A stretch of 64,000 nt of DNA from an uncultured Candidatus Saccharibacteria bacterium (GTDB lineage Bacteria > Patescibacteriota > Saccharimonadia > Saccharimonadales > 2-12-FULL-41-12), in NCBI GenBank assembly GCA_964573095.1, contig CAZNIK010000001.1, forward strand, positions 249,004-313,003, given 5' to 3'. The notes below the pieces were generated by a model. The model worked only from the letters and a program-made list of their open reading frames with translations, was not told the DNA's origin and did no database searches. This document shows, in pieces, positions 5,258 through 63,310 of the stretch (positions are counted from its first letter, which is position 1; each line of letters begins with the position of its first letter). The position numbers and the translations under genes are program-made.

Positions 5258-5265
5258 TACCTACC

Positions 5266-5271
5266 AGTGTA
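5266..5271 (-). promoter_or_regulatory. -10 box TACACT (TGg-extended) 8 nt upstream of the radA ATG; leaderless-type promoter
   Basis: The minus strand reads aTGgTACACTggtaggtaATG, inside the 24-nt gap after the upstream gene. Confidence 0.45.
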
Positions 5272-5281
5272 CCATTTTGCG

Positions 5282-6250
5282 TCAGAGAGATTTTGGCACC
5301 GAATTTGCGTCAATCGCTTGAATCAGCCCTTGATAGACAACGACGGAATTGTTGTACTTGTTCACGATGTCTTCCGACTCAGCGCTCAAAGCCTTTAGAG
5401 CTGGTACGAGCGAATTTCTTTGAACCACCAGCTGATTATAGTCATCTACGCGACTGTTATATTCGCTGATGCGATCCTGGCTGCGCAACGCATCAAGTTC
5501 GCTTTTAAATTTCACCCGCTCGGCTTCAAACCCGTTTAGTTGAGCGAGTTTCCCGTTGAATTCGGCTTTTATTTCCTCAAGGCGGGACACGTAGCGGTCT
5601 TGTTCCCGTTTTAAGTCTGTGAATACCTGCTCGTATTGTTCGGAGTAGGTAACAACCTTTTTCCGGTCACGGAAGTACTTTGAGTAATACGCTTCAAGTT
5701 GTGGCGATAAATCTCGCACTTCCGACCCCAATATGGAATGAAGCTCATTTGGAACCACCGACGCATCTTTTTTGCGATAATTTTCGACCGTATTCTTTAT
5801 TCTTTCGTCAGTTATTGTCTTGAAAAATTCAGCAGTCATTTGGTCGACCCGCAGCCGCTCTTCACTACTAAGCCGATCGTATTGAGCGTGAAGAATTTCG
5901 TGCGCAGACGTCACCTCCATAACACCCGCCAGACGAGGATCGTTGACGTTCAGCAAGAAGATTCCCTGTCTTTCAATGTAGCAACCAAGCACAATTGACT
6001 GCTCCGTTGTCTTGCAGACGCTTTTAAACCTTTCCTTACCGTCAATTTCCGGCCGATTGACATAAAAAACCCGACGGGTGTTATCCGTCATGGTGGTATT
6101 GTTTGCAAGCTCCACAACCCGGTCTGGTGGCTGGTAGCCTCTAAGCGCCAGAGAGTCATATATGTCTTGGCGGTTCACAATACCGTACACCGAACCTAGT
6201 AGTACCGCGACGAGAGCCGTTCCTGCAACTGCCTTGAGCAATTTATTCAT
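5282..6250 (-). CDS. Hypothetical membrane-anchored protein with an HExxH motif and a long C-terminal coiled coil
   Basis: It has an N-terminal TM helix (AVAGTALVAVLLGSVYGIV), a single zincin-like motif (TSAHEILHAQYD) and a heptad-rich C-terminal half. I chose the ATG at 6250 (MNKLLK); the ORF track begins 2 codons earlier at a TTG. Confidence 0.6.
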   Translation of the reverse strand: MNKLLKAVAGTALVAVLLGSVYGIVNRQDIYDSLALRGYQPPDRVVELANNTTMTDNTRRVFYVNRPEIDGKERFKSVCKTTEQSIVLGCYIERQGIFLLNVNDPRLAGVMEVTSAHEILHAQYDRLSSEERLRVDQMTAEFFKTITDERIKNTVENYRKKDASVVPNELHSILGSEVRDLSPQLEAYYSKYFRDRKKVVTYSEQYEQVFTDLKREQDRYVSRLEEIKAEFNGKLAQLNGFEAERVKFKSELDALRSQDRISEYNSRVDDYNQLVVQRNSLVPALKALSAESEDIVNKYNNSVVVYQGLIQAIDANSVPKSL

Positions 6251-6260
6251 TATCAAGAGT

Positions 6261-6266
6261 AGTATA
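6261..6266 (-). promoter_or_regulatory. -10 box TATACT exactly 10 nt upstream of the ATG at 6250
   Basis: The minus strand reads gggTATACTactcttgataATG, with no SD. Confidence 0.4.
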
Positions 6267-6297
6267 CCCTAGCTTTGCCTAAGAATTAGCTGAAAAA

Positions 6298-10049: not shown

Positions 10050-10087
10050 CCTTGTGTTTCCTTTCAATTTCAACCGAGTCTGGCATT

Positions 10088-10152: not shown

Positions 10153-10177
10153 GTTGTGGCGGGCATCACATTTTGGG

Positions 10178-10183
10178 TACAAT
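10178..10183 (+). promoter_or_regulatory. -10 box TACAAT 7 nt upstream of the pepN ATG; leaderless-type promoter
   Basis: The sequence reads gggTACAATagactaaATG, with no SD. Confidence 0.45.
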
Positions 10184-10190
10184 AGACTAA

Positions 10191-12764
10191 ATGAGCAGAA
10201 ACGTGTCCCGGCTTTACTATCAGTTTGCCCCAATAAATTATGAGCTAGACCTGTCGTTAGATGCCCAGAACCAAAAATTTTTTGGCACCGTAACTATCAC
10301 TGGCAAAAAAACCGGCAGACCAAATAAAAGAATCACCCTGCACCAAAAGGGACTTTCGGTACAGTCGGCAAAAATAGTCAAGCACGACAAATCAACCCCG
10401 CACCCCGTTGCGATCGAAAGAATAAACCTGCATAAAAAATTTGATGAGCTACGTATTCATACAACATCAGTGCTTTATCCAGGAACGTATACTATCGAGG
10501 TCACTTTTTCGGGAAAAATTACCGACCCAATGACGGGACTGTACCCGTGTACTTTTATGAACAATGGGCAGAAAGAGTCCTTGCTGGCGACTCAGTTTGA
10601 AAGTCACCACGCCAGGGAAGTGTTTCCTTGTATTGACGAGCCAGAAGCAAAAGCAACCTTTGATTTACAAATTACCGCCCCGAAAGATGATGTTGTTTTA
10701 TCAAATATGCCTCTTAAAAAAGAAGTTGTGAGAGACAATTCAAAAATATCGTTATTCAAGACGACGCCGGTGATGAGCAGCTACTTACTGGCATTCGTGG
10801 TTGGAAAAATGCACGCCGTCGAGGGCGTGTCGAAAAACGGCATTCAGATACGTACCTGGAGCCACATCAATCAACCAAAGAAAACGCTTGCCTACGCGAA
10901 TGAGCAGGCAATAAAAGTTATCGACTTTTTTGAGGACTATTTTGACATTCCCTTCCCGCTGCCAAAGTGCGACCAGGTGGCTCTACCAGACTTCGAAAGT
11001 GGCGCTATGGAAAACTGGGGACTCATCACATACCGCGAGGTTGCCTTGCTCACAGACCCCGTGAATCGCTCTATCGCCAGCGAACAATACGTGTCCATGG
11101 TGATCGCCCATGAGCTATCACACCAATGGTTTGGAAACTTAGTAACCATGAAATGGTGGGATGACTTATGGCTCAATGAGAGTTTTGCGAGCCTAATGGA
11201 GCATATTGCGCTAGATCACCTTCATCCCACGTGGCACCAATGGGAACAATATGTAAGCGTAGATGTAATTGCTTCGTCTAATCGAGATGTCCATAAGGAT
11301 GTGCAACCAGTTCGAGTTGACGTAAATCACCCAGACGAAATACATACGTTGTTTGATCCCGCAATTGTATACGCCAAGGGTGGACGCCTTCTAAAAATGC
11401 TCATGGATTATATTGGGGAGACCGCCTTTCGTGAAGGTCTAAAAGATTATTTTTCAACTCATAAATACAAGAACACTACCCGTGACGATCTGTGGACTTC
11501 GCTGTCAAAAACCAGCGACAAAAAAGTTCATGATTTTATGAACCCTTGGCTTGAACAATCCGGGATGCCGATAGTTTCCGTTACATCAAAATCCAAAGGC
11601 GTGTTGAGTCTAAGCCAATCACGTTTTTTGCTCGATAATGGAACGTCTAGTTATCTTTGGCCAATTCCGCTACTGGCAAACCAGCCCGTCGCTCCGGACG
11701 TATTTGTTGGTCCTTCCTCTGAAGCACAGTACGACAAAAGTGATGCGCCGCTACTTAACGTAAGGGGGAGTGGGCACTATGTGGTCCACTACAAAACACC
11801 AGCTCAGTCGAAGCACTTATCCGAGGCAATTCGTCGCCGCACAATACCGTCAGAAGCCCGGATAAACTCCCTCAACGATATGGTACTTCTAAACAAAAGG
11901 GGTGACCTTAATCTCGTAGACCTCATTGCTGTTGTTCGTCAATGCAAAGATGAGCCACGAGAAGCGGTGTGGGCATTATTCACAAGGATATTGGCTCTAG
12001 GAAGCCAACTTGGTGAACATAACAAAGCTATCGAAGACGGGATGAAAGAGATAAAGTACGATGTGGCCAATGGTCTGTATGGCAAACTGGGCTGGGTTGA
12101 AGAAAAAGCTGAAGATCCAAATACAAAGCTACTACGCCCAACCGTGCTCGGCCTTATGATTGGCTCCGAAAACGAAGTGGTTATTAATGATGCCATTCAA
12201 AAATATCATGACTGCCCGTCTTTGGAGGAGTTGCCTTCTGATCTTCGCGGACTTATCCTCGGAGCAACCATACGGCATAAAAACGATAAAAAAGACGTTG
12301 ATAGATTAATCGAAGCATACGCCTCAACTACCGATCCCCACTTGCAGCTTTCTATTTCGGCCGCATTGACGCACACAAAAAACGTGGAGGTCGCTCGCAG
12401 AATCATAGAAGAGGGGCTTGGTGCGAAGGGGTTTGTGCGCTCGCAGGATATTTTCCGCTGGTATGCATACCTAATGAGAAATCGATACACCCGAGAACAG
12501 GCGTGGGAGTGGCTAACCTCGTCGTGGGATATGCTTTCAGCCCGGTTTGGAGGCGGAAAGTCGTTTGATCATTTTATTGTGTACTCTTCGGCAAGCATTC
12601 ACACCAAGGACTGGGAAACAAAATTTACGAATTTTTTCGAACCCAAAGAAACTATTATTGCCTTAAAAAGGAACATTGTTATTGCAAAAAGCGAAATCCG
12701 CTCTCGAGTCGCCTGGCACGATCGAAACGAAAAACCACTCGAGCAGTATTTGTTAGATCGATAG
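10191..12764 (+). CDS. pepN: M1-family aminopeptidase N
   Basis: It has the GAMENWG exopeptidase motif, the HELSHQWFGN ... WLNESFA zinc-binding motif and an ERAP1-like C-terminal domain. Confidence 0.92.
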   Translation: MSRNVSRLYYQFAPINYELDLSLDAQNQKFFGTVTITGKKTGRPNKRITLHQKGLSVQSAKIVKHDKSTPHPVAIERINLHKKFDELRIHTTSVLYPGTYTIEVTFSGKITDPMTGLYPCTFMNNGQKESLLATQFESHHAREVFPCIDEPEAKATFDLQITAPKDDVVLSNMPLKKEVVRDNSKISLFKTTPVMSSYLLAFVVGKMHAVEGVSKNGIQIRTWSHINQPKKTLAYANEQAIKVIDFFEDYFDIPFPLPKCDQVALPDFESGAMENWGLITYREVALLTDPVNRSIASEQYVSMVIAHELSHQWFGNLVTMKWWDDLWLNESFASLMEHIALDHLHPTWHQWEQYVSVDVIASSNRDVHKDVQPVRVDVNHPDEIHTLFDPAIVYAKGGRLLKMLMDYIGETAFREGLKDYFSTHKYKNTTRDDLWTSLSKTSDKKVHDFMNPWLEQSGMPIVSVTSKSKGVLSLSQSRFLLDNGTSSYLWPIPLLANQPVAPDVFVGPSSEAQYDKSDAPLLNVRGSGHYVVHYKTPAQSKHLSEAIRRRTIPSEARINSLNDMVLLNKRGDLNLVDLIAVVRQCKDEPREAVWALFTRILALGSQLGEHNKAIEDGMKEIKYDVANGLYGKLGWVEEKAEDPNTKLLRPTVLGLMIGSENEVVINDAIQKYHDCPSLEELPSDLRGLILGATIRHKNDKKDVDRLIEAYASTTDPHLQLSISAALTHTKNVEVARRIIEEGLGAKGFVRSQDIFRWYAYLMRNRYTREQAWEWLTSSWDMLSARFGGGKSFDHFIVYSSASIHTKDWETKFTNFFEPKETIIALKRNIVIAKSEIRSRVAWHDRNEKPLEQYLLDR

Positions 12765-13141: not shown

Positions 13142-13686
13142 ACATACGCCCGCAGCGGCCGAATGCTTGTACGGTGATGGATGGTAAGTCCATATTTTTT
13201 TATTGCTTCACGATGTTTTTCTGTGCCGTAGCCAACGTGAGTATCAAAGCCGTATTGTTTGTGTGCATTTGATAACGACAGCATGTACTTGTCTCGTGTG
13301 ACCTTTGCAATAATGCTGGCGGCTGATATTGCAGGAATAATACTATCACCGTGAACTAGTGTTGTAGTCCCTTGGATATGTTTCAGATAATTAATTGAGC
13401 CATCGATGATAATCTCGCTATCTGCTGGTGCGTCAACAATTGAGCGCTGACAGGCCAAAGTGGTCGCGGCGGTTAAACCAATAACATCGACTTCTTTCGG
13501 GCTCGCCCGCCCCACCCCAATAAACTCTGCGCCCTCAACTATCCGACCATACAGCGCTTCGCGTTGCGTGGCGGTCAACTTCTTAGAATCATTAAGCCCA
13601 TCGATTTGAGAGCGAAGCGAGACGGCGGCAACGACTAATGGTCCCGCCCATGCGCCTCGTCCGACCTCGTCAATTCCAACGACCAT
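13138..13686 (-). CDS. rnhB: Ribonuclease HII
   Basis: It has the VGIDEVGRGAWAGPLVVAAV N-terminal catalytic motif and the DSKKLT motif. Confidence 0.92.
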   Translation of the reverse strand: MVVGIDEVGRGAWAGPLVVAAVSLRSQIDGLNDSKKLTATQREALYGRIVEGAEFIGVGRASPKEVDVIGLTAATTLACQRSIVDAPADSEIIIDGSINYLKHIQGTTTLVHGDSIIPAISAASIIAKVTRDKYMLSLSNAHKQYGFDTHVGYGTEKHREAIKKYGLTIHHRTSIRPLRAYV

Positions 13687-13693
13687 AGTCGCT

Positions 13694-13702
13694 ATTATAC
13701 CA
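13694..13702 (-). promoter_or_regulatory. Extended -10 (TGgTATAAT) 7 nt upstream of the rnhB ATG; leaderless-type promoter
   Basis: The minus strand reads cTTGgTATAATagcgactATG, with no SD. Confidence 0.5.
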
Positions 13703-14234: not shown

Positions 14235-14352
14235 AGAAATATAACTCTTAGTTGTGCCTAACTCTTTAAATCTTTCATCTACCATAACATATCCAAGCAA
14301 ATAATGAAACTGGTACGCGAGGGCGACGTTGGGCGTAGACCAGCCTATCGTT

Positions 14353-14358
14353 TACAAT
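14353..14358 (+). promoter_or_regulatory. -10 box TACAAT 7 nt upstream of the malic enzyme ATG; leaderless-type promoter
   Basis: The sequence reads cgttTACAATatacgtaATG, with no SD. Confidence 0.45.
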
Positions 14359-14365
14359 ATACGTA

Positions 14366-15499
14366 ATGGATTATGCAAAAGAGGCACTTAGGCAACACAA
14401 GGAGCTTAAGGGCAAGATAGAAATACGCTTAAAAGACACCTTGGACACCAAGGACAAATTGAGCACGTACTATACCCCAGGCGTCGGTACGGTTAGCAGC
14501 TACGTTGCTGCGCACCCCAACGAGGCTCGTGAGTATACATGGACGAACAACTCGGTGGCAATCGTAAGCGACGGGTCGGCTGTACTCGGTCTCGGGAACA
14601 TTGGGCCACTCGGCGCACTGCCTGTTATGGAAGGAAAGGCAATGCTTTTTAAGCATTTTGCTGACGTAGACGCGGTGCCAATAGTAATTAATGCGCACAG
14701 TGCAGACGAGATTGTTGCGACCGTTCGCGCCATTGCCCCCACCTTTGGTGGCATTAACCTTGAAGATATTGCCGCGCCAATATGTTTTGAGGTCGAGGAA
14801 CGATTAATTTCCGAGCTTGATATTCCTGTCTTTCACGATGACCAGCACGGAACAGCTGTTGTGGTACTCGCTGGACTAATAAACGCCATGAAGGTTGTCG
14901 GTCGTTCGCTGAGTGACACAAAGATAGTCGTTGTGGGGGCTGGAGCAGCTGGCGTAGCCATCATGAAGCTTTTGCATCAGTACGCCAAGCCATCGATGTT
15001 TGCGGTTGACAGCAAAGGGGTTATCAGCAAGAACCGCACCGACCTCAATGAAGAGAAGAAGCGATTGCTCAAGTTCAGCAACTTGACGAACATTGGCGGC
15101 TCTCTTGAAGACATTATAGAAGGCGCTGATGTCTTTATCGGTGTATCCAAAGCAGGGCTGCTCAGCCAAGCCATGGTCAAGTCGATGAACAAGGACCCCA
15201 TTATTTTTGCAATGGCAAACCCAATTCCAGAAATTATGCCCGATGAAGCTGAACAAGCCGGAGTGGCAATAATGGCCACCGGGCGGAGCGATTTCCCCAA
15301 TCAAGTCAATAACGCACTGGCCTTCCCGGGTATCTTTCGCGGCGCACTAGACAATAAGCTTAGCGCCATCACTGACGACCACAAGATCGCCGCCGCCGAA
15401 GCAATAGCCGCCCTCGTCGAGAACCCTACACCGCAGGAGATTATTCCTTCAGTTCTTGACGATAGGCTGGTGCCCGCGATTGCAAAAGTAGTGATCTAA
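14366..15499 (+). CDS. NAD(P)-dependent malic enzyme (short prokaryotic type)
   Basis: Recognisable segments are LSTYYTPGV, VSDGSAVLGLGNIG, FGGINLEDI and the GAGAAG Rossmann motif. The 377-aa length fits the short ME class. Confidence 0.85.
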   Translation: MDYAKEALRQHKELKGKIEIRLKDTLDTKDKLSTYYTPGVGTVSSYVAAHPNEAREYTWTNNSVAIVSDGSAVLGLGNIGPLGALPVMEGKAMLFKHFADVDAVPIVINAHSADEIVATVRAIAPTFGGINLEDIAAPICFEVEERLISELDIPVFHDDQHGTAVVVLAGLINAMKVVGRSLSDTKIVVVGAGAAGVAIMKLLHQYAKPSMFAVDSKGVISKNRTDLNEEKKRLLKFSNLTNIGGSLEDIIEGADVFIGVSKAGLLSQAMVKSMNKDPIIFAMANPIPEIMPDEAEQAGVAIMATGRSDFPNQVNNALAFPGIFRGALDNKLSAITDDHKIAAAEAIAALVENPTPQEIIPSVLDDRLVPAIAKVVI

Positions 15500-15507: not shown

Positions 15508-17109
15508 TTAGCTAACTACTCGATACACCTCTTCAAGCGTGGTTTCGCCGCGTATGGCCTTCAATATGCCGTCGTGTAACATCGTAATCATGCCGTCCTC
15601 AACGGCTTTTGCTTGGAGCATATCAGAAGTAAGCTGATTTGCCGGTTTTCTAAGAAGCTGCTGTATCCCAGGCGTCATCTCTAGCTGCTCTCGAATTGCA
15701 ATCTGCCCCTTATAGCCAAACGGGTTTTCGTCTGACTTCCCGGGTGTATAAAGCGTAATTTCGTCAATATTTGGACGCTCTAGCTCTGGCGGTAAGCTGT
15801 CGATTACACTTTTGAGCTGCGCTTTTAGTCCGTCGTCGGGTTGATACGGCTGCTTGGTTTCATCATCAAGACGCCGAATTAGTCGTTGCGCCATGACCAA
15901 ATGCATTGCACTCGCAAAAAGCGGATTGATTCCGATAGCATCGAGCATTCTCATGATTGCTGCCGACGCGGAGGCGGCGTGGAAGGTAGACAATACTAAA
16001 TGCCCAGTAAGTGCCGCTTGAAGGGCTGTTTTCGCGGTATCTTGATCACGAATTTCGCCAACCATAACTATGTCTGGATCGAGGCGAAGAACCGCACGAA
16101 GTTTTTCAGCAAATCCGAGCTGATTTTTGTCACCATGAACTGGAATCTGCACTACTCCAGGGAGAAAATACTCAATTGGATCCTCTAGTGTAATAATCTT
16201 TCGTTCGGGCGAGTTAAGTGTATTGATCAACGAATACAGTGTGGTTGTTTTTCCAGAACCGGTTGGACCAACGACGAGCACCATCCCCGAGGGGTGTCGA
16301 ATAACATCGTCGACGACATCCCTTTCTTTTTCGCTCAGACCAAGGCTGTCGAGGTTTAGAAGTTCCATTCTGAGATTAAACAAACGCATTACTACATCGG
16401 TGCCATAGGCAGTTGGAACGGTTTCGACACGCAGATTAACGTTTACTTCTTCGCCGGTGGCGAGTGTATAGATCTTGTTTATGTGTCCTGTCTCGGGATC
16501 TGGATTATTTGTACTCACATTTGCAGCGATTGCGATTGAAGATAACACTTGATGATACTTATCGGGGGCAATATGGGCAATTGGATGCAAAACCCCATCA
16601 ACACGAACACGAACGCGAACGTGATCTTTTTGACATTCAAGATGGATATCGGACCCTTTCAGTTGATAGGTTTGTTTCACGAGATACGCAAGAATGTCAT
16701 CAGCTAAAACTCTGTCCAGCGTGGCGGTTACCTCACTTATTAAGGTATCGTTTTGTTGATCGCTAAACTTAACATCTTGATACTCAATTTTTTCTGGTGG
16801 GTTATAAAGCTTCATGTATTCTAAAAAGCCGTTATCAGAGATGAGCGAAAATGACACCCTCTGATCCAGAAATCTTCCGCGAATGGTTTGCATGGTTTGC
16901 TGCGAAGTGTTGTTGGTAATACCAAACAATATGTTGTGTTCGTCGGCCTGCAATGGAACCACCTTAAAGTCCTTCAGCTCTTGGACGGTGAGAAGATCAT
17001 GATAGAGCGTTTTTTCAGTGTCTGTAGACGTATCAAAATAAGTCATACCCAATATTTGGGACCGTCTTTGGGTGGACTGTTCTTCGGAACGCCTTGCATC
17101 TTGGCTCAT
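15508..17109 (-). CDS. GspE/PilB-family secretion ATPase (type IV pilus assembly ATPase-like)
   Basis: It has a Walker A motif (GPTGSGKTT), the Asp box and His box region (VGEIRD ... TGHLVLSTFH) and an N-terminal GSPII_E_N-like domain. Confidence 0.87.
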   Translation of the reverse strand: MSQDARRSEEQSTQRRSQILGMTYFDTSTDTEKTLYHDLLTVQELKDFKVVPLQADEHNILFGITNNTSQQTMQTIRGRFLDQRVSFSLISDNGFLEYMKLYNPPEKIEYQDVKFSDQQNDTLISEVTATLDRVLADDILAYLVKQTYQLKGSDIHLECQKDHVRVRVRVDGVLHPIAHIAPDKYHQVLSSIAIAANVSTNNPDPETGHINKIYTLATGEEVNVNLRVETVPTAYGTDVVMRLFNLRMELLNLDSLGLSEKERDVVDDVIRHPSGMVLVVGPTGSGKTTTLYSLINTLNSPERKIITLEDPIEYFLPGVVQIPVHGDKNQLGFAEKLRAVLRLDPDIVMVGEIRDQDTAKTALQAALTGHLVLSTFHAASASAAIMRMLDAIGINPLFASAMHLVMAQRLIRRLDDETKQPYQPDDGLKAQLKSVIDSLPPELERPNIDEITLYTPGKSDENPFGYKGQIAIREQLEMTPGIQQLLRKPANQLTSDMLQAKAVEDGMITMLHDGILKAIRGETTLEEVYRVVS

Positions 17110-17117
17110 TACCGTCT

Positions 17118-17126
17118 ATTTAACCA
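17118..17126 (-). promoter_or_regulatory. Extended -10 (TGgTTAAAT) 8 nt upstream of the pilB-like ATG; leaderless-type promoter
   Basis: The minus strand reads gTGgTTAAATagacggtaATG, with no SD. Confidence 0.45.
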
Positions 17127-23050: not shown

Positions 23051-23057
23051 AGTTGTA

Positions 23058-39391: not shown

Positions 39392-39398
39392 ATAACAA

Positions 39399-48121: not shown

Positions 48122-48131
48122 CTTGCATTCA

Positions 48132-48140
48132 ATTGTAGCA
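48132..48140 (-). promoter_or_regulatory. Extended -10 (TGcTACAAT) 10 nt upstream of the pheS ATG
   Basis: The minus strand reads ttctTTGcTACAATtgaatgcaagATG, with no SD. Confidence 0.45.
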
Positions 48141-48150: not shown

Positions 48151-48159
48151 TGCTAGCAT
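48151..48159 (+). promoter_or_regulatory. Extended -10 (TGcTAGCAT) 6 nt upstream of the yajQ ATG; leaderless-type promoter
   Basis: The sequence reads gTGcTAGCATtaatgtATG. It sits back-to-back with the pheS promoter. Confidence 0.42.
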
Positions 48160-48165
48160 TAATGT

Positions 48166-48994: not shown

Positions 48995-49000
48995 ATGGCT

Positions 49001-49009
49001 ATTTTAGCA
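49001..49009 (-). promoter_or_regulatory. Extended -10 (TGcTAAAAT) 6 nt upstream of the ATG at 48994; leaderless-type promoter
   Basis: The minus strand reads agTGcTAAAATagccatATG, with no SD. Confidence 0.48.
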
Positions 49010-50093: not shown

Positions 50094-50101
50094 GTCATTT
50101 A

Positions 50102-50107
50102 AGTATA
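50102..50107 (-). promoter_or_regulatory. -10 box TATACT 8 nt upstream of the rmuC ATG; leaderless-type promoter
   Basis: The minus strand reads gcgTATACTtaaatgacATG, in the 16-nt gap after the ZIP gene. Confidence 0.42.
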
Positions 50108-50109
50108 CG

Positions 50110-50943: not shown

Positions 50944-50972
50944 TAAAAACAGATTACTTTTACACATTCATT

Positions 50973-51014
50973 ATTGCAACTTTGTCGCAATATTTTTATA
51001 ATTGTCGCAGTTAT
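50973..51014. promoter_or_regulatory. Two imperfect palindromes sharing a TTGTCGCA core in the ZIP/Zur divergent region (candidate Zur boxes)
   Basis: The first is ATTGCAAC-ttt-GTCGCAAT (50973-50991). The second is ATAATTG-tcg-CAGTTAT (50998-51014). The second overlaps the TATAAT box and the start codon of the Fur-family gene. Confidence 0.4.
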
Positions 51015-51441
51015 GGCTACTCCCGTCCCGCTTTATTTGCAAAAGCTAAAAGACCATCGACGAAGCGACACCACAGCGCGACGAGCGGTTTTTCGGGTTA
51101 TTACCAATCACACCCCTGCTCCAATTAGCATGAACGAACTGCTGCGGGAGCTTGAAGGAAAAATTGACCGCGCCAGCGCGTACAGAGCAATTGAGCTATT
51201 TGAAGCATTGGGAATCATCAAAAAAATTTACACTGGATGGAAATATAAACTAGAGCTCGGAGACGAGTTTCACGACCATCATCACCACATGAATTGTATC
51301 GGTTGCGGGCGAATCATCGCACTTCAAGACACCAAATTAGAACAAAAAATCGCCACACTGGGCGACAAAAACCACTTTAAAATAATCGAGCATCAACTAG
51401 AGATACGGGGATACTGTGAGCACTGCAAACCTTACAGATAA
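51013..51441 (+). CDS. zur: Fur-family metalloregulator (Zur-like)
   Basis: It has a winged-helix N-terminus, a HDHHHH stretch and two CxxC pairs (CIGCG, CEHCK). It is divergent from a ZIP transporter gene. The ATG at 51013 lies 10 nt after a TATAAT box (50997-51002). Confidence 0.85.
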   Translation: MATPVPLYLQKLKDHRRSDTTARRAVFRVITNHTPAPISMNELLRELEGKIDRASAYRAIELFEALGIIKKIYTGWKYKLELGDEFHDHHHHMNCIGCGRIIALQDTKLEQKIATLGDKNHFKIIEHQLEIRGYCEHCKPYR

Positions 51442-53705: not shown

Positions 53706-53717
53706 GTGCGCTATGCA

Positions 53718-53834
53718 AAATATCTTCTCCCGGCAAACCAGGATCTAGATGGAGCACCTTATCAAACACACGAAGCTAGTGACAGGTTGCTGGCAGGTCA
53801 ACGGGCTAGATCCCTCACTGCGCTCTTTATATTT
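53718..53834 (-). promoter_or_regulatory. SAM-I (S-box) riboswitch aptamer
   Basis: On the minus strand, P1 is AAAUAU...AUAUUU. The conserved core AAGAG..GAGGGA..GCCC..UGA..CAGCAACC...AAGGUGCU is present. P4 is CCUGG-uuug-CCGGG, followed by the AGAAGAU closing segment. The P2-loop UCUAG can pair with the J3/4 CUAGA (pseudoknot). Confidence 0.85.
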
Positions 53835-53854
53835 ACTTGATTGTTAAGTCTTTA

Positions 53855-53868: not shown

Positions 53869-54777
53869 TTAGGTGCGACGCAATGCCACCCAGGCGGTTT
53901 TCAGCTTGCCTTTACAGACATGCAGGAGGCGAAAAAGGTTTTTGGTAAGCCACGGGCTAAGAAAAAATACAACGACAGCTAATAGTGCGCCCAATATCTC
54001 ATCAATTGCATAGTGCTCTCCTTGATACACGGTGCCTACATAAATTAGACAAGGATAAATCCAGGCTAAAAACCGCAACCGACTTCTGAAGAGAGCACTG
54101 ATGTAAAGGGCAAACAATGTCGAGTAAGCCGCATGCAAAGAAGGCACGGCTGCAACGGCATTTGGCGATATTTGGTTATAAACCGAAGGAAAATCATGAA
54201 TACCAAGCGAAAACCACACATCGGAAGATATTCTGCGAATTGGTTCGATCAAACCCATGTCGCTCGCCATCCAGGTCGGAGCTGCGGGAAACACGAGAAA
54301 AACTACAAACCCAATAAAAGACACCGCCAAATAGGAAATTACCAATTGCCAATATTTTTTTGGAAACAGCTTCCAAACCAACACCGCAAGCCCAATTGGC
54401 AGCACAAAATGCAACATATAAGCCAGATAAAAAAGGTAGTCGTACCACATGGTCTGGCCGTGCCACCACCACTGCTGGAGAGTCGTTGTCGGCAATGTTC
54501 CGCCAAACAGCCACCGATCAACATCGATCATCCACATATATTCGACTCGCCTATTTAGCCCGTCTGCAAGTCCGCGAAACGACTCATACACGATGAGTAT
54601 CAACACAAACGGAAGAAAACGCTTCAGCATCTCCTTGGCTTGGTGAAAAATCATAAATACAAAAATCAGAAAAATCAGCAATTTATCTGGAGTTGGAAAG
54701 CTCGGTTCAAGCGCAAATAATACTACGCACGCAACGCTGCCGACTACCCCAACAGCCTGCAATATTTTTGGAAGCAT
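53869..54777 (-). CDS. PAP2-superfamily polytopic membrane protein
   Basis: It has multiple TM helices, with C2 and C3-like motifs PSLHAAYS and GEHYAIDEILG. Confidence 0.7.
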   Translation of the reverse strand: MLPKILQAVGVVGSVACVVLFALEPSFPTPDKLLIFLIFVFMIFHQAKEMLKRFLPFVLILIVYESFRGLADGLNRRVEYMWMIDVDRWLFGGTLPTTTLQQWWWHGQTMWYDYLFYLAYMLHFVLPIGLAVLVWKLFPKKYWQLVISYLAVSFIGFVVFLVFPAAPTWMASDMGLIEPIRRISSDVWFSLGIHDFPSVYNQISPNAVAAVPSLHAAYSTLFALYISALFRSRLRFLAWIYPCLIYVGTVYQGEHYAIDEILGALLAVVVFFLSPWLTKNLFRLLHVCKGKLKTAWVALRRT

Positions 54778-54784
54778 TAGACCT

Positions 54785-54790
54785 ATTGTA
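54785..54790 (-). promoter_or_regulatory. -10 box TACAAT 7 nt upstream of the PAP2 ATG; leaderless-type promoter
   Basis: The minus strand reads gcgcTACAATaggtctaATG, with no SD. Confidence 0.45.
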
Positions 54791-54817
54791 GCGCACTAAG
54801 AGCGCAGAAAAATATAG

Positions 54818-57347: not shown

Positions 57348-57356
57348 TGGTATTTT
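57348..57356 (+). promoter_or_regulatory. Extended -10 (TGgTATTTT) 6 nt upstream of the ATG at 57363; leaderless-type promoter
   Basis: The sequence reads tgTGgTATTTTtgtcatATG, with no SD. Confidence 0.4.
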
Positions 57357-57362
57357 TGTCAT

Positions 57363-57608
57363 ATGTTAGAGAAAGGTCCGTTTGTAATACAATGCTACGA
57401 TTCCTTTGAGGGTGAGTACTACAATATTCACCCGGTATCGGAACATACTCATGACACCCTGGAACAAGCTGAAGCTGATGCCGAAGCCGAATGGCAAAAA
57501 ATACGGATAGATCAGACGACTGACCCAGAAGAAGATGACTATGAGCTGCAAGATGAAGTGTATATTGTTGACTTGAACGGCAATAGAGAACCTTATCCCT
57601 TAGGCTGA
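57363..57608 (+). CDS. Small, strongly acidic hypothetical protein (81 aa)
   Basis: The sequence is MLEKGPFVIQCYDSFEGEYY...DPEEDDYELQDEVYIVDL, rich in Asp and Glu. I recognise no family. Confidence 0.5.
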   Translation: MLEKGPFVIQCYDSFEGEYYNIHPVSEHTHDTLEQAEADAEAEWQKIRIDQTTDPEEDDYELQDEVYIVDLNGNREPYPLG

Positions 57609-57725: not shown

Positions 57726-57734
57726 TGGTATAGT
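57726..57734 (+). promoter_or_regulatory. Extended -10 (TGgTATAGT) 6 nt upstream of the EEP ATG; leaderless-type promoter
   Basis: The sequence reads agTGgTATAGTcaaattATG, with no SD. Confidence 0.48.
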
Positions 57735-57740
57735 CAAATT

Positions 57741-58448
57741 ATGCGATGTGCCACATTTAACGTACTTGCCGATGCCTACATTGGTTATGGCGATTACTCG
57801 CATGTGGACACTAGGTTACTATTGCCAAACGCACGCACACAAGGCATTGTGCGGTTAATAGACAATCTACAGGTTGATGTCATTGGTTTGCAAGAAGTAG
57901 AGGAACCCTTAGTCCGCGCATTAGATGAAACGGGCAATTGGCAAGCGCTTTGGTCGCCAAAAGAACGCGGTAAATCAGACGGTTGCCTAACGCTCGTAAG
58001 AAATGGTATCGACGTGAACGAGTTTAATACGCATCCATACAATGATCAGTCGGGCCATATATTGCAGACCGTACGTATCGGGCAACTGGTTTTTGCTAAC
58101 ACTCATATTAAGTGGGCACCGTCAGACACCCCGAAACATATCGGCGTCACCCAAACCGCTGAACTGTTAGAGCGAATTAGTCCAGAGAAGCCGACGGTTA
58201 TTTTTGCCGATTGTAATGATAGACCAGGCGGACCGGTAAGGCAGTTAATTAAAGAGGCGGGATTCATAAGTGTGTGCGAAGACACGCCGACCGCTCTCGT
58301 TAATCAAGAACAAGTCGCCCTAGATTTATTGGCAATCCGTGGAGTTACAGCAAAATGCAGTACCGACAAATACCCTCTGACTGAAATACCCAACGAAGAC
58401 TGCCCTTCTGATCACATACCTGTTGTTGCAGAGATAGAAATCAATTAA
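57741..58448 (+). CDS. Endonuclease/exonuclease/phosphatase (EEP) family protein
   Basis: It has the N-terminal TFNVLAD motif, IGLQEVE and the C-terminal SDHIPVVAEI motif. There is no signal peptide. Confidence 0.82.
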   Translation: MRCATFNVLADAYIGYGDYSHVDTRLLLPNARTQGIVRLIDNLQVDVIGLQEVEEPLVRALDETGNWQALWSPKERGKSDGCLTLVRNGIDVNEFNTHPYNDQSGHILQTVRIGQLVFANTHIKWAPSDTPKHIGVTQTAELLERISPEKPTVIFADCNDRPGGPVRQLIKEAGFISVCEDTPTALVNQEQVALDLLAIRGVTAKCSTDKYPLTEIPNEDCPSDHIPVVAEIEIN

Positions 58449-60306: not shown

Positions 60307-60864
60307 CTATACAAGGGGCACAAAAACAAAGCCTGGATGTGTCTTGGTTTCGTGATCGCTCTTGGAAGTTTTAATAATTTCTAAAATATCGTTTTGCACG
60401 GGTATCACCAGCTTGCCTCCGACTTTTAGCTGAGTTAGTAACTCGGCTGGCAGCTTTTGCGCCGACGCGCTTACTAATATGCGGTCGTAGGGGGCGTGCT
60501 TGGATAAACCATATTCTTTGCCTGCGTGAAAAAACTTTGCGTTCTGGACGCCCACTCTATCGCAGTTGTCTCTGCCGAACTCTACCAATTGGGGAATTTT
60601 TTCGACAGCAAACACGCGGCCTTTTGGGCCGACAATCTGCGACAAAAGTGCCGTGGTCCACCCCGACCCAAAGCCTACGTCTAGAATTGTTTCGCCTGGT
60701 TTTGCATCTAGCCAACCTAACATTAGCCGGACTGTCGTGGGCTGACTAATCGTCTGGCCAAAGCCTATGGGCAAGGGCGCATCGATTTCTGCCTGGCTTT
60801 GCAAAGCTTTGGGCACAAAATTCCTACGATGTACTTTATGAAAAGCCTTCTCAATCACGTCCAT
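60307..60864 (-). CDS. pcm: Protein-L-isoaspartate O-methyltransferase
   Basis: It has GQTISQPTTVRLM and the SAM-binding motif ILDVGFGSGWTTALLSQ. Confidence 0.87.
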   Translation of the reverse strand: MDVIEKAFHKVHRRNFVPKALQSQAEIDAPLPIGFGQTISQPTTVRLMLGWLDAKPGETILDVGFGSGWTTALLSQIVGPKGRVFAVEKIPQLVEFGRDNCDRVGVQNAKFFHAGKEYGLSKHAPYDRILVSASAQKLPAELLTQLKVGGKLVIPVQNDILEIIKTSKSDHETKTHPGFVFVPLV

Positions 60865-60871
60865 AGTAATA

Positions 60872-60877
60872 ATTATA
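60872..60877 (-). promoter_or_regulatory. -10 box TATAAT 7 nt upstream of the pcm ATG; leaderless-type promoter
   Basis: The minus strand reads ggcaTATAATtattactATG, with no SD. Confidence 0.48.
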
Positions 60878-60948
60878 TGCCTACTAAGCTACATCACGAA
60901 CACAGCAAAAACCTTTATCGAGATTGCGCAAATTACAGCTTAGTTGCG

Positions 60949-61864: not shown

Positions 61865-61915
61865 ATACGTAATACCGTATCATGTAGTGAGCAGATTGTT
61901 GATAAGGAGGACGTT

Positions 61916-62350
61916 TTGGCAAGTAAAAAAATCACTATTGTGCTTGTTGGTGTGGCGATAATTGTTGCAGGAGGATTTGGTATCTACCTGCTTACGAACA
62001 ACGAGCAAGCCTCGGCCCCAGCCACAAATCAAACACCGAGTTCTACCGCGACAGAAACGCCGCAAGGCCAAAACCAAACTGATTCAAAAACCATTACGGT
62101 TGCAGAGGTCCAAAAACACGCGAGCAAGGATGATTGTTGGACCATTGTCGAAAATAGAGTTTTTGATATCACTTCTTACGTGCCGCGACACCCTGGTGGA
62201 GATGAGATACTGCAAGCCTGCGGCAAGGACGGCACAAGCTTGTTCACCCAGAGGAAAACAAGCGGAGGTCAATCGGTTGGTTCTGGAACCCCACACTCAT
62301 CAAGCGCAACGAGACAACTTGAACAGTTCCAAATTGGAATCCTTCAATAG
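61916..62350 (+). CDS. Membrane-anchored cytochrome b5-like heme-binding domain protein
   Basis: The TTG start at 61916 is preceded by AAGGAGG at 5-nt spacing. An N-terminal signal-anchor (KKITIVLVGVAIIVAGGFGIYLL) and a low-complexity linker lead into the b5 core VAEVQKHASKDDCWTIVENRVFDITSYVPRHPGGDEIL. The ORF-track extension back to 61691 overlaps the divergent gene and I rejected it. Confidence 0.75.
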   Translation: MASKKITIVLVGVAIIVAGGFGIYLLTNNEQASAPATNQTPSSTATETPQGQNQTDSKTITVAEVQKHASKDDCWTIVENRVFDITSYVPRHPGGDEILQACGKDGTSLFTQRKTSGGQSVGSGTPHSSSATRQLEQFQIGILQ

Positions 62351-62364
62351 ACTAATCTTTCTCC

Positions 62365-63126
62365 ATGACAAAGCTTAAAAATCTTTTGGGTGACTCTTCG
62401 GCTATATACCCTGCAAAATTTCATAGGTACGACGAACCACATGATGGGAAGAATAATGCCCAGCTCAACTGGTTGCGAGCAGCAGTATTGGGTGCTAATG
62501 ACGGTATTGTTTCGGTAGCAGCTTTGGTGGTTGGCGTCGCCGGTGCAACTAATGACCGTACGGTTGTGTTGACAGCCGGTATCGCCGGATTGATTGCTGG
62601 CGCCCTTTCTATGGCTGCTGGCGAATACGTATCGGTGAGTTCTCAGAGGGACAGCGAAAAAGCCATGCTGGCTCGTGAAAAAGCCGAACTGGAACAGTTT
62701 CCAGACAATGAATTAAAAGAGTTGGCCTATATATACGAGCAAAAAGGATTGTCGGCCAAGACAGCAAAAACGGTCGCAAAAGAGCTAACCGCCAATGATG
62801 CGTTTGCTGCCCACGTAGATGCCGAGCTTGGAATTGATCCAGAGGACCTAACAAACCCATGGCATGCTGCGGTTGCGTCGGCACTGTCTTTCACTGCCGG
62901 TGCAATAATTCCGCTCTCAACCATAATTTTGTTCTCAACGTCTCTACGCGTCCCTGCGACATTTGTGGCAGTCGTTGTTGCACTAGCAATTACTGGTTCG
63001 CTTAGTGCGTGGGTTGGAAGAGCACCAGTCTTAAGGGCAACCGGCAGAGTTGTTGTGGGCGGATTGATTGCGATGGCAATCACCTTTGCGGTTGGCCACA
63101 TTTTCCGCATAAATGGCGCAATCTAA
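62365..63126 (+). CDS. VIT1/CCC1-family iron/manganese transporter
   Basis: It has LRAAVLGANDGIVSVAALVVGVAGA and GEYVSVSSQRD motifs and C-terminal TM helices. Confidence 0.87.
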   Translation: MTKLKNLLGDSSAIYPAKFHRYDEPHDGKNNAQLNWLRAAVLGANDGIVSVAALVVGVAGATNDRTVVLTAGIAGLIAGALSMAAGEYVSVSSQRDSEKAMLAREKAELEQFPDNELKELAYIYEQKGLSAKTAKTVAKELTANDAFAAHVDAELGIDPEDLTNPWHAAVASALSFTAGAIIPLSTIILFSTSLRVPATFVAVVVALAITGSLSAWVGRAPVLRATGRVVVGGLIAMAITFAVGHIFRINGAI

Positions 63127-63296
63127 ATCTAGCTTTCTATTTTTTTGAAACCAACGTCGAAGGGATATGCTTGAACGCCGTTCAACAGCATGAGCTCGAG
63201 GAAAGAACCATCACAAACTGGACAATAGCGAGCAGGATTACTACCGACCACTTCTTCGTGCGGTCACTATACCACATGCTGGATCTGAATTTGAGG

Positions 63297-63302
63297 TATG
63301 CT
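63297..63302 (+). promoter_or_regulatory. -10 box TATGCT 8 nt upstream of the ATG at 63311; leaderless-type promoter
   Basis: The sequence reads gaggTATGCTatagacatATG, with no SD. Confidence 0.35.
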
Positions 63303-63310
63303 ATAGACAT

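What the first reader, a model, noticed from the sequence alone, without database searches (positions are those of the whole stretch)
5258..63310. Near-consensus -10 boxes at a fixed 6-8 nt (or exactly 10 nt) from start codons, without Shine-Dalgarno: pervasive leaderless transcription units
Reading the 40 nt upstream of genes that begin a transcription unit, I repeatedly find a TAnnnT hexamer, usually TATAAT, TACAAT or TATACT, at a fixed distance from the ATG with no purine-rich SD between them. About half of these hexamers carry a TGn extension. At 6-8 nt spacing the cases are radA (8), pepN (7), rnhB (7), malic enzyme (7), the pilB-like gene (8), GDPD (7), yajQ (6), the 48994 small membrane protein (6), rmuC (8), PAP2 (7), the 57363 acidic protein (6), EEP (6), pcm (7) and the 63311 gene (8). 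At exactly 10 nt the cases are the 6250 gene, fba, transketolase-N, pheS and zur. Three of the 10-nt cases share the context TTGcTA(T/C)A(C/A)T. A -10 box 6-8 nt from the ATG would place the transcription start on or next to the A of the start codon. Genes internal to operons or carrying regulated leaders instead have clear SDs; examples are clpC, gap, ppa, trxB, FKBP, the 403-aa ORF, PfkB and cytochrome b5, with AGGAGG, AAGGAG or GGTGG. This two-mode organisation, leaderless at operon heads and SD-dependent internally, is well known in Actinobacteria, Deinococcus and archaea. I am not aware of it being established for CPR/Saccharibacteria-like genomes. It also affects start-codon calling: several ORF-track N-termini are too long.
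Basis: partly seen in the sequence, partly recalled or inferred. Interest (0 to 1): 0.6.

Follow-up and report, generated by a model that had tools for sequence, protein, structure and literature searches.

The report
Leaderless gene starts in a Saccharibacterium
In this Saccharibacteria (CPR) genome and its relatives, about a third of genes have a promoter -10 box only 6-10 bases before the start codon and no ribosome-binding site, so their mRNAs probably start at or next to the AUG; this arrangement is well known in Actinobacteria and Deinococcus but I found no report of it for this phylum.

Summary
In the window, 12 of 54 unbiased ORF starts have TAnnnT 6-8 nt upstream, against 3.0±1.5 in dinucleotide shuffles. 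In 160 related Saccharimonadales loci the count is 396 of 1506 against 121.5±10.

The motif is an extended -10 promoter, T(A/G)TGnTAtA(c/a)T, with no -35 element.
- It almost never co-occurs with a Shine-Dalgarno sequence (SD).
- It is absent from translationally coupled genes (0 of 136, of which 61% have SD).
- It lies 20-45 nt upstream of SD-led genes.
- Each gene family keeps its mode across species: pepN 39 of 44 boxed, rnhB 21 of 29, yajQ 29 of 35, nusA 0 of 53 with 50 SD.

- The boxes also precede genes only 7-47 nt downstream of same-strand neighbours, so they are not confined to classical operon heads.
- "Exactly 10 nt" is the 9-11 nt tail, implying 2-4 nt leaders. It is conserved only for pheS.

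There are no experimental transcription start site (TSS) data. Verdict: a new member of a known kind (GeneMarkS-2 "group C" architecture) in a CPR lineage. It is solid and useful, of moderate interest.

The parts
5255..5274 (-). radA promoter and start: TGgTACACT, 8 nt, ATG 5257
   Evidence: In 80 orthologues, 45 have a box at 6-11 nt and 24 have an SD with the box 15-25 nt further upstream; the same MAKK N-terminus is used in both forms.
6248..6269 (-). Gene 5282-6250: TATACT, 10 nt, ATG 6250 (predicted 3-4 nt leader)
   Evidence: In orthologues, 34 of 58 are boxed, mostly at 6-7 nt and only 3 at 10 nt.
10175..10193 (+). pepN: TACAAT, 7 nt, ATG 10191
   Evidence: 39 of 44 orthologues (38-89% aa identity) have a box at 6-8 nt and only 4 have SD.
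13684..13702 (-). rnhB: TGgTATAAT, 7 nt, ATG 13686; 32 nt behind rplS
   Evidence: 21 of 29 orthologues are boxed (mode 6 nt) and none has SD. In seven orthologues a terminator hairpin and T-tract run straight into the box.
14350..14368 (+). Malic enzyme: TACAAT, 7 nt, ATG 14366
17107..17126 (-). pilB-like ATPase: TGgTTAAAT, 8 nt, ATG 17109 (weak; hexamer lacks the A at position 2)
   Evidence: Only one orthologue was available, so this case is unverified.
23048..23068 (-).
30739..30757 (-). uvrB: TGcTACAAT, 7 nt, GTG 30741 (possible leaderless GUG; the alternative is ATG 30729 with a 12-nt SD-less leader)
   Evidence: The longest ORF is about 50 codons too long compared with the GDQP motif position in E. 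coli UvrB.
34590..34611 (-). fba: TTGcTATACT, 10 nt, ATG 34592 (alternative: ATG 34571 with TACGCT at 7 nt)
   Evidence: The start is not verified by orthologues, and neither version is in public protein sets.
36549..36570 (-). Transketolase N-terminal subunit: TTGcTATAAT, 10 nt, ATG 36551
   Evidence: Public annotations disagree on the start (285, 305, 313 and 320 aa versions).
37657..37677 (-). rpiB: TATAGT, 9 nt, GTG 37659 (ambiguous)
39383..39401 (+). GDPD: TATACT, 7 nt, ATG 39399. The same palindromic stretch read on the other strand gives TGtTATAGT, the likely -10 box of SD-led ppa.
   Evidence: read directly from the sequence.
48119..48140 (-). pheS: TTGcTACAAT, 10 nt, ATG 48121 (predicted 3-4 nt leader)
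   Evidence: 51 of 73 orthologues are boxed with a mode of 10 nt (7:4, 8:11, 9:13, 10:19, 11:4), shifted from other families (Mann-Whitney P=1e-16). The 342-aa form is the common public annotation.
48151..48168 (+). yajQ (DUF520): TGcTAGCAT, 6 nt, ATG 48166; back to back with the pheS box in a 44-bp divergent spacer
   Evidence: 29 of 35 orthologues are boxed at 6-7 nt.
48992..49009 (-). DUF5665 membrane protein: TGcTAAAAT, 6 nt, ATG 48994
50091..50110 (-). rmuC: TATACT, 8 nt, ATG 50093; 16 nt behind the ZIP gene
   Evidence: 12 of 15 orthologues are boxed. The 355-aa form is the public annotation.
50941..50959 (-). ZIP transporter: TAATCT, 7 nt, ATG 50943 (weak box; start uncertain)
50994..51015 (+). 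zur: TATAAT, 10 nt, ATG 51013
   Evidence: All 5 orthologues are boxed, at 6-9 nt. The 142-aa form is the public annotation.
54775..54793 (-). PAP2 phosphatase: TACAAT, 7 nt, ATG 54777
57348..57365 (+). Small acidic protein: TGgTATTTT, 6 nt, ATG 57363 (weak hexamer)
57726..57743 (+). EEP nuclease/phosphatase: TGgTATAGT, 6 nt, ATG 57741
60862..60880 (-). pcm: TATAAT, 7 nt, ATG 60864
62350..62367 (+). VIT1: TAATCT, 6 nt, ATG 62365 (weak)
63294..63313 (+). 99-aa gene: TATGCT, 8 nt, ATG 63311
42797..42802 (-). Contrast class: AGGAGG SD 4 nt before FKBP ATG 42792; a CGcTAGAAT box lies 29 nt upstream
   Evidence: 14 of 16 orthologues have SD and none has a near box.
10059..10062 (-). Contrast class: AGGA core of the nusA SD before ATG 10049
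   Evidence: 50 of 53 orthologues have SD and none has a box.
61905..61910 (+). Contrast class: AGGAGG SD 5 nt before the cytochrome b5 start, TTG 61916
53717..53835 (-). Contrast class: SAM riboswitch leader of metK (a regulated, leadered gene)
   Evidence: RF00162, 49.8 bits.

Best explanation
The hexamers are the -10 elements of housekeeping (sigma-70-type) promoters of the extended -10 kind. Their consensus is T(A/G)TGnTAtA(c/a)T and they have no recognisable -35 element. They sit so that RNA polymerase would start at the A of the ATG (box 6-8 nt upstream) or 2-4 nt before it (box 9-11 nt upstream).

The resulting mRNAs have no Shine-Dalgarno sequence, and the ribosome would start on the 5'-terminal AUG. 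About a third or more of genes in this Saccharimonadales genome and its relatives are built this way. That includes many genes only 7-47 nt downstream of a same-strand neighbour, whose promoter overlaps the end of that neighbour.

Genes that overlap their predecessor by 1 or 4 nt rely on SD-dependent coupling. A further set has the same -10 box 20-45 nt upstream and a short SD-bearing leader.

Shown here: the motif, its position, its exclusivity with SD, and its conservation by gene family. Inferred: the TSS position and the mode of ribosome recruitment.
For: 1. Position. TAnnnT peaks at 6-8 nt before unbiased ORF starts: window 12 of 54 against 3.0±1.5 in shuffles; 160 loci 396 of 1506 against 121.5±10. 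A motif-first scan gives the same peak. Under a stricter box score, 22.5% of gene starts score against 0.4% of internal ATGs.
2. Promoter identity. Positions I did not select carry -10 information: A at hexamer position 4 in 72%, C or A at position 5 in 87%, G at -14 in 60%, T at -15 in 44%. The top hexamers are TATACT, TATAAT, TACACT and TACAAT.
3. The same box lies 20-45 nt upstream of uncoupled SD-led genes and is nearly absent before coupled ones. radA orthologues switch between box-8-ATG and box-leader-GGAGG-ATG while keeping the same N-terminus.
4. Exclusivity. Box and SD co-occur in 12 genes only. Coupled genes have 0 of 136 boxes and 61% SD. In the window, none of 11 coupled genes has a box.
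5. Conservation by family, using homology-mapped starts while flanking sequence has diverged: pepN 39 of 44, rnhB 21 of 29, yajQ 29 of 35, rmuC 12 of 15, pheS 51 of 73 boxed. By contrast nusA 0 of 53, pheT 0 of 41 and FKBP 0 of 16 are boxed and are SD-led.
6. No room for a leader. The pheS/yajQ divergent spacer is 44 bp with back-to-back boxes. Relatives have 18-60 nt divergent spacers boxed in both directions, including a 21-nt spacer with a palindromic TAGTATACTA. In 13 genes a terminator hairpin ends 17-30 nt before the ATG.
7. Features expected of a start site. Start codons are ATG in 94% of boxed genes against 86% of SD genes (P=1.6e-4). The base before the ATG is a pyrimidine in 75% and G in 5%. 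For 10-11 nt spacings, A peaks at +7/+8 after the hexamer.
Against: - No experimental TSS exists for this organism. The only TSS set I found for a Saccharibacterium (N. lyticus TM7x, 188 sites) was inferred from RNA-seq coverage, and its authors note imprecise -10-to-TSS distances (PMC12641261).
- Many boxed genes sit 7-47 nt behind a same-strand gene with no terminator between them, so read-through transcripts probably exist as well. On those transcripts the same ATG would be internal and lack an SD.
- Strict terminators next to boxes are rare (2.7%, no more than in other classes).
- Some window cases rest on weak hexamers (pilB, 57363, ZIP, VIT1) or on GTG starts (uvrB, rpiB).
- Starts for fba and tktN were chosen partly because of the box.
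- How well this organism translates mRNAs with 2-4 nt leaders is unknown.
Confidence: 0.83

Rival explanations
1. The TA-rich hexamer is a non-Shine-Dalgarno translation signal inside a conventional leader, such as an AU-rich S1 or standby site of the GeneMarkS-2 "group B" type. On this view transcription starts further upstream.
For: The box is frequent before genes closely following a same-strand gene (57% at gaps of 16-40 nt). That could be read as a signal used inside operons. CPR ribosomes are unusual (shorter bS1, missing proteins; PMC9297842).
Against: - The motif has the exact anatomy of an extended -10 promoter, with TG one base upstream and invariant T, A and T.
- It is absent from truly coupled internal genes (0 of 136).
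- It also lies 20-45 nt upstream of SD-led genes, where it cannot be an RBS (radA).
- Divergent spacers of 18-60 nt and terminators ending 17-30 nt before the ATG leave no room for an upstream promoter.
Confidence: 0.06
2. The promoters are real but secondary. Most expression of boxed genes that follow a same-strand neighbour comes from polycistronic read-through transcripts, and the leaderless transcripts are a minor supplement.
For: Eleven boxed genes in the window lie 7-47 nt behind a same-strand gene, with no convincing terminator between them. Terminator-like hairpins are only weakly above shuffles, 27-32 found per 20-kb scan (87 in total over 60 kb) against about 21-23 expected per scan.
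Against: These genes lack an SD, so translation from an internal position would be poor. Box position is conserved for such genes across species (rnhB, rmuC). Truly coupled genes use SD instead.
Confidence: 0.1
3. The pattern is an artefact of AT-rich intergenic composition, stop codons of upstream genes (TAA/TAG) or mis-called start codons.
For: TAA and TAG stops can create TAnnnT, and the longest-ORF rule enriches in-frame stops at 0, 3, 6... nt (small peaks at 0-1 nt). Several window starts were chosen with the box in view.
Against: - Dinucleotide shuffles and other distances in the same sequences give 3-4 times fewer hits.
- The dominant hexamers are TATACT, TATAAT and TACAAT, not TAAnnT or TAGnnT.
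- Out-of-frame distances of 7 and 8 nt are also enriched.
- Homology-mapped starts, chosen without reference to the box, give the same result.
Confidence: 0.01

Closest known systems
GeneMarkS-2 "group C" genomes (bacteria with frequent leaderless transcription; Lomsadze et al. 2018, PMC6028130)
   Same: A Pribnow box 6-8 nt from the start codon of promoter-proximal genes, SD sites on the other genes, and predicted leaderless shares of 25-50% of operons. The window and its relatives show 20-56% of genes per locus.
   Different: That paper names Actinobacteria and Deinococcus-Thermus as the main group C lineages. Saccharibacteria and CPR are not mentioned in its text, and its tables were not available to me. 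Here the box is most frequent at same-strand gaps of 16-40 nt, so promoters are close to one per gene rather than only one per operon.
Leaderless transcriptomes of Mycobacterium tuberculosis and M. smegmatis (Cortes 2013, PMC3898074; Shell 2015, PMC4633059)
   Same: A -10 element with little or no -35, a TSS on the A or G of the start codon, no SD, and AUG or GUG sufficing at the 5' end (from my own knowledge of these papers; they were listed but I did not read them here).
   Different: Those cases are mapped experimentally; here the TSS is inferred. The Saccharimonadales consensus is TAtAcT with a frequent TRTGn extension, in a 37-57% GC background.
Deinococcus deserti leaderless mRNAs (de Groot 2014, PMC4007540)
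   Same: A large share of mRNAs starts at the initiation codon (47%) or very close to it (60% in total; abstract). This matches the 6-8 nt class plus the 9-11 nt near-leaderless tail seen here.
   Different: That study used dRNA-seq and proteogenomics. The lineage is different and the organism is not genome-reduced.
Archaeal leaderless genes (GeneMarkS-2 group D)
   Same: Leaderless first genes together with SD on internal genes.
   Different: The archaeal promoter is a TATA box about 26 nt upstream. Here it is a bacterial -10 box at 6-8 nt.
Extended -10 (TGn / TRTGn) promoters of Firmicutes and E. coli
   Same: TG one base upstream of the hexamer, T at -15 and about -17, and a dispensable -35 (profile; the family description is from my own knowledge).
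   Different: In those organisms such promoters normally drive leadered mRNAs.

Membership tests
Bacterial leaderless gene architecture (GeneMarkS-2 group C type) | -10 (Pribnow) box at a fixed distance of about 6-8 nt upstream of start codons, above chance | tested here: met
   The peak is at 6-8 nt: window P=3e-5; loci 396 against 121.5±10.
Bacterial leaderless gene architecture (GeneMarkS-2 group C type) | No Shine-Dalgarno sequence between the box and the start; box and SD mutually exclusive | tested here: met
   12 genes with both signals, against 479 box genes in the seven context classes counted. One search gives the window table.
Bacterial leaderless gene architecture (GeneMarkS-2 group C type) | Internal (coupled) operon genes use SD and lack the box | tested here: met
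   for overlaps of -4 or -1 nt, 0 of 136 have a box and 61% have SD; none of 11 coupled genes in the window has a box.
Bacterial leaderless gene architecture (GeneMarkS-2 group C type) | The box is confined to the first genes of operons | tested here: inconclusive
   The box is commonest at same-strand gaps of 16-40 nt (57%). These genes may head their own units, but operon boundaries cannot be set without RNA data.
Bacterial leaderless gene architecture (GeneMarkS-2 group C type) | Primary transcript 5' end maps on the start codon or within about 5 nt of it | not testable with these tools
   No TSS data. The only published Saccharibacteria TSS set was inferred from RNA-seq coverage.
Bacterial leaderless gene architecture (GeneMarkS-2 group C type) | Start codon at the 5' end is AUG, less often GUG | tested here: met
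   94% ATG, 4% GTG and 2% TTG in the box class, against 86% ATG in the SD class (P=1.6e-4).
Extended -10 sigma-70 promoters | TGn immediately upstream of a TAnnnT hexamer with conserved A at position 2 and T at position 6; -35 dispensable | tested here: met
   G at -14 in 60%, T at -15 in 44%, and no information at the -35 position (0.07 bit or less); two-hexamer matches are not above shuffles.
Extended -10 sigma-70 promoters | The same element drives leadered genes at the appropriate distance | tested here: met
   the box peaks 20-45 nt upstream of uncoupled SD-led genes. Searches show this for radA orthologues.
Non-SD RBS genomes (GeneMarkS-2 group B type) | The same upstream motif before all genes, including coupled internal ones | tested here: not met
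   0 of 136 coupled genes carry the motif.

The most novel reading that the evidence does not exclude
Saccharimonadales, and possibly CPR more widely, run a promoter-per-gene, largely leaderless expression system. Minimal modules of -10 box, 6-8 nt and ATG are packed into 16-40 nt spacers or shared palindromically between divergent genes. The exact box-to-ATG distance is a conserved, gene-specific setting: pheS keeps 9-10 nt, giving a 3-4 nt leader, across species with 59-70% identical proteins. That spacing would tune translation in organisms with very few regulators. The trait may be shared by descent with other leaderless-rich Terrabacteria such as the Actinobacteria, which include the known Saccharibacteria hosts, and it could ease gene exchange with them.
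Probability: 0.3. Interest if true: 0.6.

Novelty: new member of a known kind. Interest (0 to 1): 0.45.

Why it matters
- **Annotation.** Start codons in Saccharibacteria/CPR genomes are called inconsistently; tktN exists publicly as 285, 305, 313 and 320 aa versions. A leaderless model fixes the start from the promoter.
- **Genetic tools.** Genetics in Saccharibacteria is only now becoming possible. A defined minimal promoter, TRTGnTAtAcT followed by 6-8 nt and ATG, with no RBS needed, is directly usable for expression constructs.
- **Biology.** The pattern suggests that these regulator-poor, genome-reduced epibionts express many genes from individual constitutive promoters. It also adds a CPR lineage to the leaderless-rich clades, which bears on the view that leaderless initiation is ancestral.
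- **Limit.** The mechanism itself is not new.

Tried and rejected
- **-35 element.** The anchored profile shows none, and the two-hexamer consensus scan is not above shuffles in any of three 20-kb scans.
- **Terminators as boundary markers.** A strict hairpin plus T-tract directly upstream of a box occurs in only 13 of 489 boxed genes. That is no more than in other classes, so these cases are illustrative rather than statistical.
- **Other CPR classes.** I tried to reach them to ask whether the trait is CPR-wide.
- **Published TSS data or group C lists.** No supplements were held for PMC6028130 or PMC12641261. The TM7x transcriptome preprint has no promoter or TSS analysis.
- **"Exactly 10 nt" as a separate mode.** Rejected. 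In relatives, 10 nt is the tail of one distribution, except in the pheS family.
- **Stop-codon artefact.** Considered and rejected on hexamer identity.

Full report
**What the window is.** The radA protein of the window finds 80 genome loci, nearly all labelled Candidatus Saccharimonadales or Saccharibacteria, at 62-95% identity with conserved gene order. The window is therefore a Saccharibacteria (TM7, CPR/Patescibacteria) genome of about 47% GC. Rfam finds only a tRNA-Gln and a SAM riboswitch in front of metK.

**Checking the observation.** I printed the 40-50 nt upstream of every long ORF and of alternative in-frame starts.
- The only formal exception is the pilB-like gene, whose hexamer is TTAAAT rather than TAnnnT.
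- Three further hexamers (TATTTT, TAGCAT, TATGCT) are weak.
- Ten of the 19 hexamers carry TG one base upstream.
- The three TTGcTAnAnT contexts exist.
- The listed SD examples are real, including cytochrome b5, whose true start is TTG 61916 behind AGGAGG.

**Is it more than chance?** To avoid circular start choice, I took every ATG that is the first in-frame start after a stop and opens at least 100 codons.
- In the window, 12 of 54 such starts have TAnnnT ending 6-8 nt upstream. Dinucleotide shuffles of the same upstream regions give 3.0±1.5, and other distances give 2.2 (P=3e-5).
- In the 80 radA loci plus 80 metagenome loci around pheS, about 2 Mb in total, the count is 396 of 1506 against 121.5±10. 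The 80 radA loci show a sharp peak at 6, 7, 8 and 9 nt (12.7, 8.6, 7.0 and 5.5%) over a baseline of 2.5-3%.
- A motif-first scan asks where an ORF-opening ATG falls after TGnTAnnnT. It gives the same peak.
- With a stricter box score, 22.5% of gene starts qualify against 0.4% of internal in-frame ATGs.
- The flat histogram that would have refuted the finding is excluded.

**What the motif is.** I anchored 302 boxed starts from relatives on the hexamer. The positions I had not selected carry the information expected of a sigma-70 -10 element: A at hexamer position 4 (72%), C or A at position 5 (87%), G at -14 (60%), T at -15 (44%), T near -17, and A just downstream.
- The commonest hexamers are TATACT, TATAAT, TACACT, TACAAT and TAAACT, not stop-codon-derived TAAnnT or TAGnnT.
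- There is no -35 signal (0.07 bit or less per position). The two-hexamer consensus scan of the window is not above shuffles.
- The element is thus an extended -10 promoter, T(A/G)TGnTAtA(c/a)T.
- The same element peaks 20-45 nt upstream of SD-led genes that are not coupled to a predecessor, and it is almost absent before coupled genes. That is what a promoter would do and what an RBS would not.

**Relation to SD and gene context.**

| Context of the gene start | Box at 6-10 nt | SD |
|---|---|---|
| Overlaps predecessor by 4 or 1 nt | 0 of 136 | 61% |
| Same-strand gap 0-15 nt | 19% | 28% |
| Same-strand gap 16-40 nt | 57% | 16% |
| Same-strand gap 41-100 nt | 37% | 25% |
| Divergent neighbour | 33% | 20% |

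- Box and SD co-occur in only 12 genes.
- In the window, none of the 11 coupled genes has a box. Eleven boxed genes (radA, the 6250 gene, rnhB, the 23050 gene, uvrB, tktN, rpiB, the 48994 gene, rmuC, corA, VIT1) lie 7-47 nt behind a same-strand gene.
- The two-mode picture is therefore right. "Operon head", however, must be read as any gene with room for a -10 box: promoters overlap the 3' ends of upstream genes and come close to one per gene.

**Comparative evidence.** I mapped starts in orthologues by protein alignment to the window protein, without looking at the upstream DNA. Each family keeps its mode even though the flanking DNA is otherwise unalignable.

| Family | Boxed | SD |
|---|---|---|
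| pepN | 39 of 44 (6-8 nt) | 4 |
| rnhB | 21 of 29 (mode 6 nt) | 0 |
| yajQ | 29 of 35 | 3 |
| rmuC | 12 of 15 | 1 |
| 6250 gene | 34 of 58 | 5 |
| nusA | 0 of 53 | 50 |
| pheT | 0 of 41 | 30 |
| FKBP | 0 of 16 | 14 |
| glutaredoxin | 0 of 15 | 10 |

- radA switches between modes. Forty-five of 80 orthologues have the box at 6-11 nt. Twenty-four have GGAGG, with the same TGnTAnAnT box 15-25 nt further upstream. The MAKK N-terminus is unchanged in both forms.
- So the same ATG is used in both modes, and a short SD-bearing leader is gained or lost between box and ATG.

**Space constraints.**
- pheS and yajQ diverge from a 44-bp spacer that holds two back-to-back boxes.
- The GDPD box and the likely ppa box share one palindromic TATAGTATA.
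- Relatives have 57 divergent pairs with spacers under 60 nt. Twelve are boxed in both directions, including a 21-nt spacer whose palindromic TAGTATACTA serves both genes.
- In 13 boxed genes, seven of them rnhB orthologues, a terminator hairpin and T-tract end 17-30 nt before the ATG and run into the box. This is rare, so it illustrates the point rather than proving it.

**Features expected of start sites.**
- Boxed genes start with ATG in 94% of cases, against 86% for SD genes (P=1.6e-4).
- The base before the ATG is a pyrimidine in 75% and G in only 5%.
- With a box 6, 7 or 8 nt away, the A of the ATG is the 7th to 9th base after the hexamer. That is the usual TSS window, centred 7 bp downstream of the -10 element (PMC12641261).

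**The 10-nt class.**
- In relatives, 10 nt is the tail of one distribution.
- For spacings of 10-11 nt, an A or purine peak appears at +7/+8 after the hexamer, preceded by a pyrimidine. This predicts a TSS there and a 3-4 nt leader.
- The class is conserved only for pheS, with distances of 7:4, 8:11, 9:13, 10:19 and 11:4. That is shifted from the other leaderless families (median 9 against 7; Mann-Whitney P=1e-16).
- Orthologues of the 6250 gene are mostly at 6-7 nt, and the five zur orthologues are at 6-9 nt.
- fba and tktN could not be checked. For fba, an alternative ATG at 34571 (TACGCT-7) remains possible.

**Extent.**
- Under the longest-ORF rule, 30% of gene starts in relatives are boxed. 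The per-locus median is 30% and the range 6-56%.
- The curated window table gives about 18 good cases, 5 near-leaderless cases and a few weak ones among 62 genes.
- That is roughly 35-40%, with about 15-18 SD-led genes.

**Prior knowledge.**
- The architecture is that of GeneMarkS-2 "group C" genomes, with a Pribnow box 6-8 nt from the start. That paper names Actinobacteria and Deinococcus-Thermus as the main lineages (PMC6028130).
- Experimentally it matches M. tuberculosis and Deinococcus deserti.
- Six full-text searches found no paper connecting leaderless mRNAs with Saccharibacteria, TM7, CPR or Patescibacteria.
- A CPR ribosome survey reports shortened bS1 and loss of the anti-SD in some Parcubacteria, but it does not discuss leaderless initiation (PMC9297842).
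- The only TSS set for a Saccharibacterium was inferred from RNA-seq coverage (PMC12641261).
- Public gene calls already use the leaderless starts for pheS, rmuC and zur but are inconsistent for tktN. Gene finders therefore capture this in part, without it having been described.
- The library I searched is incomplete, so an existing description cannot be excluded.

**Verdict.** Two refinements apply: promoters are close to one per gene rather than one per operon, and the 10-nt cases are a near-leaderless tail conserved for pheS. It is a well-known mechanism in a lineage where I found no description of it. It is useful for annotation and for genetic tools, and of moderate general interest. Direct TSS mapping is the missing proof.

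Noticed in passing
window 53717-53835 (-): A SAM (S-box) riboswitch lies in the leader of metK (RF00162, 49.8 bits). It is one of the few clearly regulated, long-leadered genes in the window.
   Followed up: partly
window 10093-10112 (-): A terminator-like hairpin (GTCCGGCCGCCTGGTCGGAT followed by TTTTT) sits about 45 nt upstream of the nusA start, in the 141-nt nusA/pepN divergent spacer. It could be a leader attenuator for NusA autoregulation. No rimP gene precedes nusA.
   Followed up: no
window 50974-51012 (+), the ZIP/zur divergent spacer: A near-palindrome, TTGCAACTTTGTCGCAA, and a second half-site, TTGTCGCA, flank the zur -10 box. This looks like a Zur operator controlling both zur and the divergent ZIP zinc transporter gene.
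   Followed up: no
window 39383-39396: The palindromic TATACTATAACAA / TTGTTATAGTATA reads as a -10 box on both strands. One reading is leaderless GDPD and the other is SD-led ppa, so two divergent promoters share overlapping -10 elements.
   Followed up: partly
L096 (Ga0325400_1000943), a divergent gene pair with a 21-nt spacer: The spacer reads CAT-cttttTAGTATACTAgaagtc-ATG. A single palindromic -10 box appears to serve two leaderless genes in opposite directions. Twelve such doubly boxed spacers under 60 nt were seen in the relatives.
   Followed up: partly
window 35694-36656 (-), tktN: Public protein sets hold four different N-termini for this same gene cluster (285, 305, 313 and 320 aa), so gene callers disagree on the start. 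Transketolase is split into N-terminal and C-terminal subunit genes overlapping by 4 nt.
   Followed up: partly
window 25399-25806 (-): A 135-aa ORF with no Pfam match is inserted between gatA and gatB. It overlaps both by 4 nt and has a GGAGG SD, so it is an unexpected fourth cistron in the gatCAB operon.
   Followed up: no
window 61217-61864 (-) versus 61691-62350 (+): The longest cytochrome b5 ORF overlaps an opposite-strand 215-aa ORF by 174 nt. The overlap disappears when cytochrome b5 starts at TTG 61916 behind AGGAGG. The 215-aa ORF and the 106-aa ORF at 60949-61269 have no family match and uncertain starts.
   Followed up: partly
L013, L017, L019, L027, L031, L069, L075 (rnhB orthologues): The rplS terminator hairpin and its T-tract run directly into the rnhB TGnTAnnnT box, giving a terminator-promoter-ATG module of about 45 nt.
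   Followed up: partly
L005, L052, L063, L068 (record titles): Contigs with Saccharimonadales-like radA (62-68% identity) and synteny are labelled Burkholderiaceae, Dormiibacterota, Parcubacteria and Babeliales. These are probably mis-binned or mis-labelled MAG contigs.
   Followed up: no
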